A stretch of 64,000 nucleotides of DNA. It comes from a virus. The translations under genes were made by a program, and so were the position numbers. The stretch lies in IMG/VR virus record IMGVR_UViG_3300033182_000678, positions 1 through 64,000 of that record; one strand, given 5' to 3'. Shown here piece by piece: positions 46,885-48,766 of this stretch (position 1 is the first letter of the stretch; each line of letters starts with the position of its first letter). The notes under the pieces were generated by a model. That model worked only from the letters and a program-made list of their open reading frames with translations. It did no database searches and was not told the DNA's origin.

Positions 46885-47640
46885 TTACGAATTAAATAAT
46901 TCATCAAAAGCTTCTGAAGTGTCTTTCACTTTAGAAGACTCTAATTCAGAACTTGTTACGGTATCTTGAGTATCTGATTCACCATCTGATTCCTCTGATG
47001 GGTTCAACCATTCATCCAATACACCTGACAAGTCGTCATAAGATAACTCTTGATAAATCTCACGAATGTCTTGTTGTTCTTTGACTTTCTCTAAGATTTC
47101 AGGTTCGTCTGAAATTGGTGTTTGATTAGGTTTTACTCTAATCTTTGTTGTAGGGAAACTAGCTCCTGTTTCCTCTGCGGATATGAACTCAACTACAACA
47201 TCACGACCATTAACTGGGTCTGTAATATCACCATAATCAGGGTCAGCGATTACAGAAAGTAATTCTTGGTATACGGTTTTACCGAATCCCCAAAATTTTA
47301 CTCCTTGTTTCTCTTCACCTCTTACGATAACAGGTGCAAAAGTTCTCATTTTTGCCTCTAATTTACGAGCCAACTGATAGTCTTCTTTGTTACCACTTCC
47401 ACGAAGTTTCTGTGCAAACTCTTCAATCGGGTCAGGTCTTCCAAAGGATATTGGTGAAAGATATGAACGATTATTGAGATTGTAGTGGAAAAATAACTCA
47501 ATGAAAGGATTGTCTTTATTGAATGAATAAGGAACGATTCTGATTTGAGTTTTACCAGGTTGTGGTTTCCAAAGACTTGATGTTCTGTTGTTTGTTGTTT
47601 GAAGTTGATTTAACCTCTTACGAATAGCATTTAAGTCCAT
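46885..47640 (-). CDS. single-stranded DNA-binding protein (gp32-like)
   Basis: WKP..G...IRIVP, FWGFGKTVY, DITDP..GRD, acidic tail ending FDELFNS. Confidence 0.85.
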   Translation of the reverse strand: MDLNAIRKRLNQLQTTNNRTSSLWKPQPGKTQIRIVPYSFNKDNPFIELFFHYNLNNRSYLSPISFGRPDPIEEFAQKLRGSGNKEDYQLARKLEAKMRTFAPVIVRGEEKQGVKFWGFGKTVYQELLSVIADPDYGDITDPVNGRDVVVEFISAEETGASFPTTKIRVKPNQTPISDEPEILEKVKEQQDIREIYQELSYDDLSGVLDEWLNPSEESDGESDTQDTVTSSELESSKVKDTSEAFDELFNS

Positions 47641-47755
47641 TGTTTATCTCCTATTTGTTAATTTATTAATTGTTAATTAGTATTCAAGTATAACCTTGAT
47701 ACAATAATATATATCATATATATTTGTAAAAAACGGATTTATTTTCATTATTTGC

Positions 47756-47827
47756 AAAAAAAATGGTCATCTTGTTTTTAAGTTTGTAAATAAGGTGGAA
47801 ACTAAAAATCGTGTGACCATTTTTTTT
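47756..47827 (-). terminator. long hairpin terminator after the candidate ncRNA
   Basis: 14-bp perfect inverted repeat AAAAAAAATGGTCA / TGACCATTTTTTTT with additional internal pairing. Confidence 0.7.
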
Positions 47828-47840
47828 AAGTTTATGAAAT

Positions 47841-48240
47841 CTATGGGGATGTAGGACTAACGATTACCTACAACTTGAAGCTTGGATTTTTTATACCTTG
47901 TACCTAACACCCATCAGTTACGATGATTCTTCTCAAGATGGTTAATCTCATTGAAGTGAGTACAACCTCTGTGTTATTACCTTATCTCTCCAAGATTAGA
48001 TTATTCGGTCATAAAGTGGGATTTCAGTTTTACCCTTACCCACAACAAGGTCAATAGAATCGTTTCTATTATAGTTTTATCTTCAAGTACATTAAATGAT
48101 TGATGTCTCAACTACCGAAATTATTTTAACCTCAGTAGGTTCACCACAAACTCATTTCAGATTACCTTATGGGCTTCTAAAGTCTACCCATTATTCGGTC
48201 AATCCCATACAGAGTTAATTACTCTCTGTACTTTCTGATT
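47841..48240 (-). ncRNA. candidate large structured ncRNA (about 400 nt, family unassigned)
   Basis: No ORF of 60 aa or more; many hairpins, one with G-U pairs that only work on the minus strand; long-range helices; duplicated motifs; terminator downstream. Confidence 0.7.
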
Positions 48241-48358
48241 TCAAATTTTCAAAAAACTAATTTACTTAAGACCAATTAAGTAAGTTATGTTTATATATAT
48301 ATTGGAAAAATCCCAAACCGTATTTTTTTTTAATTTTTTTTTATTTTTTTTTATTTTT

Positions 48359-48766
48359 TTATTTTAACCATTCATTAACATCAATAATAGAATGAATCTT
48401 TGTAGGAATCTTTGTTAATCCATTTTCATTTGTTAATAATAGTGTGTTCTGAAACTCATCCCAATCAACCATAAACTTCTTATCTAAGATTCCATTATTC
48501 TTTGAACGAATAACTTCATTCAATGCATTGATTGTGTAGAGTGTATTTGATTGTTTCTTTCTATGAAGAGATATAGTATCTATTGTTGGTTCTTGAAAGT
48601 CTTCATTGAATTCCACATTGTAAGTGCATAACAATTGTGATGGGTCATTTACATCTGTAAAGACATAAACCTTATCATATAAAATTTTATTACAAGAAAC
48701 TATGATATCAATGGATTCATTTAGTTTGTCTTGTTTAGTGAATGTACATAGTAATTGAGTCCTCAT
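48359..48766 (-). CDS. hypothetical phage protein
   Basis: MRTQLLCTF...HRKKQSNTLYTINALN; start inferred at 48766. Confidence 0.7.
   Translation of the reverse strand: MRTQLLCTFTKQDKLNESIDIIVSCNKILYDKVYVFTDVNDPSQLLCTYNVEFNEDFQEPTIDTISLHRKKQSNTLYTINALNEVIRSKNNGILDKKFMVDWDEFQNTLLLTNENGLTKIPTKIHSIIDVNEWLK

What the first reader, a model, noticed from the sequence alone, without database searches (positions are those of the whole stretch)
47851..48201. The RNA is built from two homologous modules that pair reciprocally
Seen: exact repeats UGACCGAAUAAU (48190-201, 48000-011) and AUAAGGUAAU (48161-170, 47976-985) enclosing different hairpins, then GAG(U/G)UUGU, UUGAGA, GUAC...AUAAAA and GUUGURGGUAA...UCCYAC (48036-46, 47864-74) in the same order in both halves. 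The segment after GUAC in each module pairs with the segment before GUUGURGG in the other module. Inference: a pseudo-two-fold, strand-swapped RNA with two equivalent binding or catalytic sites, possibly able to oligomerise.
Basis: partly seen in the sequence, partly recalled or inferred. Interest (0 to 1): 0.85.

Follow-up and report, generated by a model that had tools for sequence, protein, structure and literature searches.

The report
Strand-swapped two-core manA phage RNA
This is a roughly 390-base folded RNA of an uncultured marine phage, made of two copies of the known "manA" RNA core that swap one helix strand with each other, a layout I did not find in the papers I could search and one that can be tested directly by structure work.

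Summary
The RNA lies on the minus strand at about 48233-47844, upstream of the gp32-type SSB gene. It contains two homologous modules. The stretch after GUAC in each module pairs with the stretch before GUUGURGG in the other module.

In 49 distinct relatives from IMG/VR, these two exchanged helices are 98.5% and 99.6% paired. Ten of their 13 pairs show compensatory changes. The best same-module alternatives reach only 76-80% (on the first 21 relatives). A second, distant lineage has the same exchange, also with covariation.

It is not a new class. Rfam manA (RF01745) matches the 3' module at 70.3 bits, and a model built from that module finds a canonical cyanophage manA. The best description is two manA cores in one chain: core A (K1, J1, helix a, T2, closing stem) and a circularly permuted core B (T1, K2, J2, helix b).

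The cores are not equivalent, because several conserved loops differ between them. Every locus held has exactly two cores.

A 2026 preprint reports that single manA RNAs build RNA-only cages in vitro. Here the P1 loop is a 6-nt palindrome that a double change preserves, which hints at self-association. The function is unknown.

This scan noted the same two-core layout earlier on other DNA.

The parts
48207..48231 (-). P1 hairpin. Its apical loop holds the palindrome UAAUUA (48220-48215).
   Evidence: The stem covaries (helix 1, 99.1% paired, 3 pairs with double changes). Loop types are tabulated.
48202..48206 (-). 5' strand of the closing stem (GGGAU). It pairs with 47846-47850 and encloses both modules.
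   Evidence: 100% paired in 49 sequences, with one pair GC:39 / AU:10. In lineage II it reads GUGUA/UACAC versus AUAUG/CAUAU.
48162..48201 (-). Module 1 K element (UGACCGAAUAAU, a hairpin, then AUAAGGUAA).
   Evidence: Helices 3-4 covary. The K part is aligned with high posterior by the module-2 model R1.
48094..48157 (-). Module 1 junction J1 with three hairpins: hairpin 1 with loop GUGGUG at 48151-48139, a variable hairpin 2 at 48138-48113, and hairpin 3 with loop GACA at 48112-48099.
   Evidence: Helices 5-7 covary. Consensus.
48081..48088 (-). Helix a, 5' strand (ACUUGAAG, directly after GUAC of module 1).
   Evidence: Pairs with 47873-47880. 98.5% paired, with 6 of 8 pairs showing double changes.
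48051..48070 (-). Small distal hairpin of module 1 (AUAGAA..UUCUAU), lying inside helix a.
   Evidence: The AUUC is invariant.
48046..48050 (-). Helix b, 5'-proximal strand (CCUUG, directly before GUUGUGGG of module 1).
   Evidence: Pairs with 47896-47900. 99.6% paired, with 4 of 5 pairs showing double changes.
48016..48043 (-). T1 hairpin (GUGGGUAAGGG..AAAUCCCAC). Rfam's model mis-assigns it as 'P1' of the 3' module.
   Evidence: alignment; helix 11.
48012..48015 (-). 4-nt linker UUUA. In core B it takes the place of the closing stem.
   Evidence: Read from the sequence.
47977..48011 (-). Module 2 K element.
   Evidence: Rfam manA alignment; helices 13-14.
47905..47976 (-). Module 2 junction J2 with three hairpins: hairpin 1 with loop GUUGUA at 47969-47958, hairpin 2 with loop UUAACC at 47956-47929, and hairpin 3 with loop UAAC at 47926-47911.
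   Evidence: Helices 15-18 covary. This region is the core of model R1.
47896..47900 (-). Helix b, 3' strand (CAAGG, after GGUAC of module 2).
47881..47895 (-). Conserved single-stranded stretch (UAUAAAAAAUCCAAG; AAAUC invariant).
47873..47880 (-). Helix a, 3' strand (CUUCAAGU, before GUUGUAGG of module 2).
47851..47871 (-). T2 hairpin (GUAGGUAAUCGUUAGUCCUAC), of canonical manA size.
   Evidence: Helix 19, 100% paired, 3 pairs with double changes.
47846..47850 (-). 3' strand of the closing stem (AUCCC).
48245..48257 (-). Conserved leader motif GUUUUUUGAAAAU (GUUCUUUGACAAU in relatives), just 5' of the RNA. It resembles boxA; this was not tested.
   Evidence: Conserved across loci; single exact match in the window.
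47756..47827 (-). Terminator-like long hairpin plus U-run between the RNA and the gp32 promoter-like site. Its interior is invariant (AUUUUUAGUUUCCAC..ACUUAAAAA).
   Evidence: The base stem covaries.
46885..47640 (-). gp32-type single-strand DNA-binding protein gene, the conserved downstream neighbour.
   Evidence: Pfam gp32 PF08804; PHROG SSB.

Best explanation
The stretch encodes a stand-alone, roughly 390-nt structured RNA of the manA family (Rfam RF01745), in which two manA cores are fused in one chain by reciprocal strand exchange.

A canonical manA RNA has a closing stem around four elements: a K hairpin, a three-hairpin junction J, a hairpin here called P-x, and a terminal hairpin T. 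In this RNA the 5' strand of module 1's P-x pairs with the 3' strand of module 2's P-x (helix a). The 3' strand of module 1's P-x pairs with the 5' strand of module 2's (helix b).

The result is two cores. Core A is K1, J1, helix a, T2 and the closing stem. Core B is a circular permutation: helix b, T1, a 4-nt linker in place of the closing stem, K2 and J2. Both cores keep the same cyclic order of helices and are joined arm to arm through helices a and b.

Shown here: the fold, its family identity, and that there are always exactly two cores in the loci held.

Inferred:
- It arose by tandem duplication. After duplication the two identical P-x stems could pair either way; later divergence of a and b fixed the swapped form.
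- It is a gene of its own rather than the gp32 leader.
- It acts as a pre-formed pseudo-dimeric building block or scaffold for RNA-RNA (or RNA-protein) assembly, as single-core manA RNAs do in vitro. I put this functional step at about 35%.
For: Family identity:
- Rfam manA matches the 3' module at 70.3 bits, against a gathering score of 55.2.
- Model R1, built from module 2, finds the canonical cyanophage S-SSM7 manA (37.9 bits, E 7e-8) and module 1 of the window.
- On 79 loci (567 kb), R1 gives one strong hit per locus plus 16 weak hits, all at the module 1 position and none elsewhere.

Strand exchange:
- RNAalifold predicts helices a and b independently, and so does the single-sequence minimum-energy fold.
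- On 21 relatives the two helices are 97.4% paired, 10 of 13 pairs have double changes, 0 of 500 shuffles reach this, and slid controls give 26-57%.
- On 49 relatives the whole fold is 98.5% paired and 62 of 92 pairs have double changes. Helix a is 98.5% paired and helix b 99.6%.
- The best same-module registers reach only 80% and 76%.
- A second lineage (L205, L247, L227, L206) has the same exchange. Helix b covaries there (UCACU/AGUGA, ACGCU/AGUGU, UUGUU/AACAA, UCGUU/AACGA), and so do helix a and the closing stem.

Stand-alone gene:
- A conserved hairpin with a U-run, followed by a separate promoter-like motif, lies between the RNA and gp32.
- RNA-library contigs from three studies cover the RNA body, 47844-48233.
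- The canonical S-SSM7 manA abuts a tRNA gene.

Assembly:
- Preprint 10.64898/2026.07.01.735769 reports 8-, 10- and 60-mer cages of single manA RNAs, held together by kissing loops.
- The P1 loop palindrome UAAUUA changes to UUAUAA by a double change, and no intermediate form occurs among 62 sequences.
Against: - No experiment exists on this RNA. Covariation cannot tell intramolecular from intermolecular pairing of helices a and b.
- One relative (L001) breaks helix a. It may be a recombinant or a chimeric contig.
- Module 1 is only marginally detected by the module 2 model (15.6 bits, E 0.06 in the window).
- The transcript ends are not mapped, because only assembled contigs were available.
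- The P1 palindrome is AU-rich and is absent from 8 relatives that carry a GACG loop, and from lineage II.
- The conserved adjacency to gp32 in this clade could still reflect a functional link.
Confidence: 0.72

Rival explanations
1. A tandem-aptamer riboswitch in the 5' leader of gp32. Two related ligand pockets would bind cooperatively, as in tandem glycine riboswitches, and set read-through of the downstream terminator-like hairpin.
For: manA was proposed as a riboswitch candidate (PMC2864571). The RNA always precedes gp32 in this clade. A hairpin with a U-run follows it.
Against: I saw no alternative pairing between the 3' part of the RNA and the terminator-like stem (by eye, no formal search). 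A separate promoter-like motif with its own leader hairpin precedes gp32. Lineage II sits after an IMPDH-like gene and is followed only by a 39-codon ORF and a convergent gene. The canonical S-SSM7 manA abuts a tRNA. No ligand is known after 16 years.
Confidence: 0.1
2. A protein-binding RNA: an operator, decoy or scaffold for gp32 or another phage or host protein. The two cores would offer two related docking sites.
For: The linkage to gp32 and UvsX is conserved in this clade. T4 gp32 is known to bind a structured element of its own mRNA (textbook knowledge, not tested here). Many invariant unpaired nucleotides lie in loops.
Against: Relatives with gp32 at 76% identity or less, and the cultured phages Mel-JY01 and immuto, lack any manA core near gp32. 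Lineage II and the canonical manA RNAs are not next to gp32. Single-core manA RNAs assemble without protein in vitro.
Confidence: 0.13
3. Two independent tandem manA RNAs, each folding on its own, or a switch between within-module and swapped forms.
For: The modules are homologous and adjacent.
Against: Within-module pairing is not conserved: the best registers reach 80% and 76%, against 98-99% for the swapped helices. There is a single closing stem around both modules. The swap is also kept in a distant lineage.
Confidence: 0.03
4. DNA-level repeats (iterons or operator sites) rather than an RNA.
For: Exact 10- to 12-nt direct repeats. The position beside replication genes.
Against: 62 of 92 pairs change on both sides while keeping base pairing, so it is pairing and not sequence that is conserved. 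The strand-specific Rfam match. Its presence in RNA-library contigs.
Confidence: 0.01

Closest known systems
manA RNA motif (Rfam RF01745; Weinberg et al. 2010, PMC2864571; cage structures in preprint 10.64898/2026.07.01.735769)
   Same: Same K element (UGRCNGAAYAA..UAAGG). Same three-hairpin junction with the GUGGUG loop (in module 1). Same GGUA linker, P-x helix, terminal hairpin GUGGGUA..UCCCAC and 5-bp closing stem. Found in marine phages. The Rfam model scores above its gathering score, and the module-2 model matches a canonical cyanophage manA.
   Different: Two cores share one chain and one closing stem. The P-x helices are formed between modules rather than within one module. Core B is circularly permuted. 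The RNA is about 390 nt instead of about 200. It occurs in a non-cyanophage lineage whose gp32 is at most 48% identical to that of any cultured phage.
Tandem glycine riboswitch (two homologous aptamers in one leader)
   Same: Two homologous structured domains in one RNA, likely to contact each other.
   Different: In the glycine riboswitch each aptamer folds from contiguous sequence, and no helix strands are exchanged. Here there is no known ligand and no evident expression platform.
Strand-exchanged RNA homodimers, e.g. the EGFOA dimer in preprint 10.64898/2026.07.01.735769
   Same: A helix of each protomer is formed with the partner's strand.
   Different: Those are two separate chains seen in vitro. 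Here the exchange is built into a single chain and fixed by sequence divergence of the two helices.
T4 gene 32 mRNA operator (gp32 autoregulation)
   Same: A structured RNA upstream of the SSB gene of a T4-like replication module.
   Different: The T4 operator is a small pseudoknot plus an unstructured stretch inside the gp32 leader. Here a terminator-like hairpin and a promoter-like site separate the RNA from gp32. There is no sequence or structural likeness.

Membership tests
manA RNA (RF01745) | Score of the Rfam covariance model at or above the gathering score | tested here: met
   70.3 bits against 55.2 at 47846-48044(-), covering module 2 plus T1 taken as 'P1'. Module 1 alone gives no Rfam hit.
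manA RNA (RF01745) | K element: UGaCUGAAUAA, a hairpin, then UAAgGu | tested here: met
   Present in both modules and nearly invariant.
manA RNA (RF01745) | Multi-stem junction with three hairpins, the first with loop GUGGUG | tested here: met
   Both junctions covary. The GUGGUG loop is in module 1 only; module 2 has GUUGUA.
manA RNA (RF01745) | P-x hairpin formed within one module, between the GGUA linker and the terminal hairpin | tested here: not met
   Within-module pairing reaches at most 80% and 76%, while the inter-module helices a and b are 98-99% paired with compensatory changes. In the canonical S-SSM7 manA the hairpin is within the module.
manA RNA (RF01745) | Terminal hairpin GugGGUA..AAUCCcaC | tested here: met
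   T1 and T2.
manA RNA (RF01745) | Closing helix GGGaG/CuCCC (marked 'pseudoknot?' in Weinberg 2010) | tested here: met
   GGGAU/AUCCC, 100% paired, with one covarying pair; it encloses both modules.
manA RNA (RF01745) | Homo-oligomeric cage formation (preprint, in vitro) | not testable with these tools
   Only an indirect lead: the palindromic P1 loop kept by a double change.
Riboswitch (tandem aptamer type) | Lies in the 5' leader of the regulated gene, with an expression platform that competes with the aptamer | tested here: inconclusive
   A terminator-like hairpin follows, but no competing pairing was seen by eye. gp32 has its own promoter-like site. Lineage II and S-SSM7 have different downstream contexts.
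Riboswitch (tandem aptamer type) | Specific ligand binding | not testable with these tools
   No ligand is known for manA (PMC2864571).

The most novel reading that the evidence does not exclude
The RNA is a natural single-chain, domain-swapped dimer of a cage-forming RNA. The exchange of P-x strands fixes the angle between two manA cores. The palindromic P1 loop and the non-equivalent core loops then drive assembly into a defined higher-order RNA-only particle in infected cells, with a symmetry different from the single-core cages. That particle would sequester or scaffold something needed at the replication stage.
Probability: 0.2. Interest if true: 0.88.

Novelty: new variant of a known kind. 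Interest (0 to 1): 0.6.

Why it matters
manA has been an orphan RNA motif since 2010, and only in 2026 was it reported to build RNA-only cages in vitro.

A natural version in which two cores are hard-wired together by reciprocal strand exchange is an RNA counterpart of protein domain swapping, fixed by evolution. It shows that the P-x arm tolerates being opened and rejoined. It also gives a defined two-core construct for cryo-EM, and it argues against the simple single-aptamer riboswitch reading.

It also appears in RNA libraries from three studies. Its biology therefore probably matters for a common group of uncultured ocean phages.

Tried and rejected
- blastn of the RNA against 50,697 phage records found no match.
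- Rfam at a relaxed E-value on 47650-48400 found nothing credible besides manA. In particular there was no second manA hit for module 1.
- Relatives with gp32 at 76% identity or less, and the gp32 loci of Mel-JY01 and immuto, have no manA core, either by Rfam or by model R1.
- Kissing-loop idea: module 1 hairpin 1 (GUGGU) with module 2 hairpin 2 (AACCA). The loops are almost invariant, and the one divergent group does not keep a clear register, so this is not supported.
- A narrower junction pattern, meant to find further lineages, returned only L163.
- Read laying: only assembled contigs were available. The flanks (47704-47839 and above 48248) had no cover in four RNA runs, and two contigs from one study stop at 47844.
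- The promoter-like motif ATATATATTAWTGTATC is not recurrent in the window: one exact site, before gp32. The sigma-70 and terminator consensus scans were uninformative.
- A literature search for the boxA consensus returned only irrelevant papers.
- A full-length covariance model was not built, because the RNA exceeds the tool's 400-column limit.
- No 1-core or 3-core form was found in the loci held, but no whole-collection structure search was possible.

Full report
**What is there.** The 12-mer UGACCGAAUAAU occurs exactly twice in the 64-kb window, both times here, against 0.01 expected by chance.

Rfam finds one family in the whole window: manA (RF01745) at 47846-48044(-), 70.3 bits against a gathering score of 55.2. 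The alignment shows that this hit is only the 3' module. The model's optional first hairpin was laid on the terminal hairpin of the 5' module, and the model's P-x hairpin is aligned poorly.

**Relatives.** The gp32 protein retrieved 80 IMG/VR loci. Every locus with gp32 at about 78% identity or more, and with enough upstream DNA, carries the full RNA of about 400 nt. I built two alignments: 21 distinct sequences (A1) and 49 sequences below 97% identity (A2).

The phage is not a classical cyanophage. Its gp32 is at most 48% identical to that of any cultured phage (Microcystis phage Mel-JY01), followed by Flavobacterium phage immuto at 40%. More distant gp32 relatives and those two cultured phages have no manA core near gp32.

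**The fold.** RNAalifold on A1 predicts the following:
- a P1 hairpin;
- a 5-bp closing stem (48206-02 with 47850-46);
- two K hairpins;
- two three-hairpin junctions;
- two terminal hairpins;
- two long-range helices.

Helix a joins the stretch after GUAC of module 1 (48088-81) with the stretch before GUUGUAGG of module 2 (47880-73). Helix b joins the stretch before GUUGUGGG of module 1 (48050-46) with the stretch after GGUAC of module 2 (47900-896). The single-sequence minimum-energy fold gives the same two helices.

Helix a encloses helix b, so the exchange is nested and not a pseudoknot.

**Covariation.**
- On A1, helices a and b together are 97.4% paired. Ten of 13 pairs show double changes. 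None of 500 shuffles reaches this, and slid controls give 26-57%.
- Examples for helix a: UUGAAG/CUUCAA, CUUCUG/CGGAAG, UUCAAG/CUUGAA, UUUCUG/CAGAAA, UUCCGU/ACGGAA.
- Examples for helix b: ACCUU/AAGGU, ACUUU/AAAGU, ACUCU/AGAGU, ACUUC/GAAGU.
- On A2, the whole fold is 98.5% paired and 62 of 92 pairs have double changes. Helix a is 98.5% paired and helix b 99.6%.
- The best registers for within-module pairing reach only 80% (module 1) and 76% (module 2).
- One sequence (L001) breaks helix a. It has the 5' strand of the L014 type and the 3' strand of the window type, which looks like recombination or a chimeric contig.

**A second lineage.** One pattern hit, L163, is not related at the sequence level (no nhmmer hit), yet it has a manA hit at 47.9 bits and a hit to my module-2 model. 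Three relatives of it were found through the neighbouring IMPDH-like gene.

In these four sequences the same exchange holds and covaries. The closing stem reads GUGUA/UACAC or AUAUG/CAUAU. Helix a reads AUUUGGU/ACUAAAU, UCUUAGU/ACUAAGU or GCAUGAU/AUUAUGU. Helix b reads UCACU/AGUGA, ACGCU/AGUGU, UUGUU/AACAA or UCGUU/AACGA. The swapped two-core layout is therefore a conserved architecture and not an oddity of one clade.

**Homology of the modules and relation to canonical manA.** I built a covariance model from the K hairpin plus junction of module 2 (R1). Its results:
- the canonical single-core manA of cyanophage S-SSM7: 37.9 bits, E 7e-8;
- module 1 of the window: 15.6 bits, E 0.06, with the K part well aligned;
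- over 79 loci (567 kb): one strong hit per locus (95-130 bits) and 16 weak hits (15.6-22 bits), all at the module 1 position and none anywhere else.

The modules are thus homologous but clearly diverged, and there are always exactly two.

The S-SSM7 manA has its P-x hairpin within the module and is followed directly by a tRNA gene.

Around each central junction the cyclic order of helices is the same as in the canonical RNA. Core A is closing stem, K1, J1, helix a, T2. Core B is helix b, T1, the 4-nt linker UUUA in place of the closing stem, K2, J2. Core B is therefore a circular permutation, and the two cores are joined through their P-x arms. 'Strand-swapped tandem' and 'permuted core nested in the P-x loop of the other' describe the same topology.

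**Not two equivalent sites.** The consensus loops differ between the cores:

| Element | Module 1 | Module 2 |
|---|---|---|
| Hairpin 1 loop | GUGGUG (canonical) | GUUGUA |
| Hairpin 3 loop | GACA | UAAC |
| Hairpin 2 | variable | carries an invariant UAACC |
| Terminal hairpin | T1 has an enlarged loop | T2 has the canonical size |
| After the P-x 5' strand | a distal hairpin | a conserved single strand with AAAUC |

**Surroundings.** Just 5' of the RNA, relatives share an AT-rich promoter-like motif, a variable hairpin, and a conserved GUU(U/C)UUUGA(A/C)AAU. The last element resembles the boxA of rRNA leaders.

On the 3' side there is a hairpin whose base stem covaries, whose interior is invariant, and which is followed by a U-run (47827-47756). 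After it comes a promoter-like site with its own leader hairpin before gp32.

Contigs from four RNA libraries in three studies cover the RNA body, 47844-48233. Only contigs were available, so the transcript ends are not established.

These points favour a gene of its own over a gp32 leader, but they do not prove it.

**Oligomerisation lead.** The P1 apical loop holds the 6-nt palindrome UAAUUA. Among 62 distinct relatives:
- 44 have UAAUUA and 2 have UAAUUG;
- 7 have UUAUAA, in which positions 2 and 5 have both changed and the palindrome is kept;
- none has a single-change intermediate;
- 8 have the canonical GACG loop instead.

On a tree built without the P1 columns, UUAUAA falls in three separate clusters and needs at least four changes, although recombination could inflate that count. 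An intramolecular pair between positions 2 and 5 is sterically impossible, so this pattern fits a symmetric loop-loop contact between two molecules.

**Literature.** Weinberg et al. 2010 (PMC2864571) described manA as a riboswitch candidate of marine phages, with a questionable 'pseudoknot'. Ren et al. 2026 (bioRxiv 10.64898/2026.07.01.735769) report that single manA RNAs under 200 nt form 8-, 10- and 60-subunit RNA-only cages through kissing loops in vitro. They do not mention tandem or duplicated forms. I found no paper describing the two-core, strand-exchanged form.

Earlier notes of this scan describe the same kind of two-core manA RNA on other genomes. My conclusions rest on the tests run here.

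**Verdict.** It is unproven about oligomerisation and not supported about equivalence of the two sites. This is a new architectural variant of a known family, and its function is unknown.

Noticed in passing
window 48215-48220 (minus strand, P1 loop): The 6-nt palindrome UAAUUA in the P1 loop is replaced in 7 of 62 relatives by UUAUAA, a double change that keeps the palindrome. No single-change intermediates occur. This hints at a symmetric kissing contact between two RNA molecules.
   Followed up: partly
window 47756-47827 (minus strand): A conserved long hairpin with a covarying base stem and a U-run lies between the RNA and gp32. Its interior (AUUUUUAGUUUCCAC ... ACUUAAAAA) is invariant across relatives, which is more than a plain terminator needs.
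   Followed up: partly
window 48245-48257 (minus strand); L163 about 686-698: A motif GUU(U/C)UUUGA(A/C)AAU lies directly 5' of the RNA in both lineages and resembles the boxA antitermination element of rRNA leaders. It was not compared with any host rRNA leader.
   Followed up: no
L001:839-1245: This close relative (gp32 98% identical) carries the helix a 5' strand of a different sublineage (L014 type), which breaks helix a. It is probably a recombinant or a chimeric metagenome contig.
   Followed up: no
L204:1501-1771 (Synechococcus phage S-SSM7, GU071098.1 151363-151633): The canonical single-core manA RNA (123.6 bits) is followed without a gap by a tRNA gene. This fits an RNA gene in a tRNA array better than a 5' leader of a protein gene.
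   Followed up: partly
L163:716-1101 and L205, L247, L227, L206: A second, sequence-unrelated lineage of two-core strand-swapped manA RNA in large phage contigs, downstream of an IMPDH/GMP-reductase-like gene. Only 4 of 80 relatives of that gene have it.
   Followed up: partly
window 47683-47730 (minus strand): A promoter-like motif (TTTACA, 18 nt, TATTGT) plus a leader hairpin (AUCAAGGUUAUACUUGA) lies before gp32. In other relatives a similar motif with a hairpin precedes the RNA gene.
   Followed up: no
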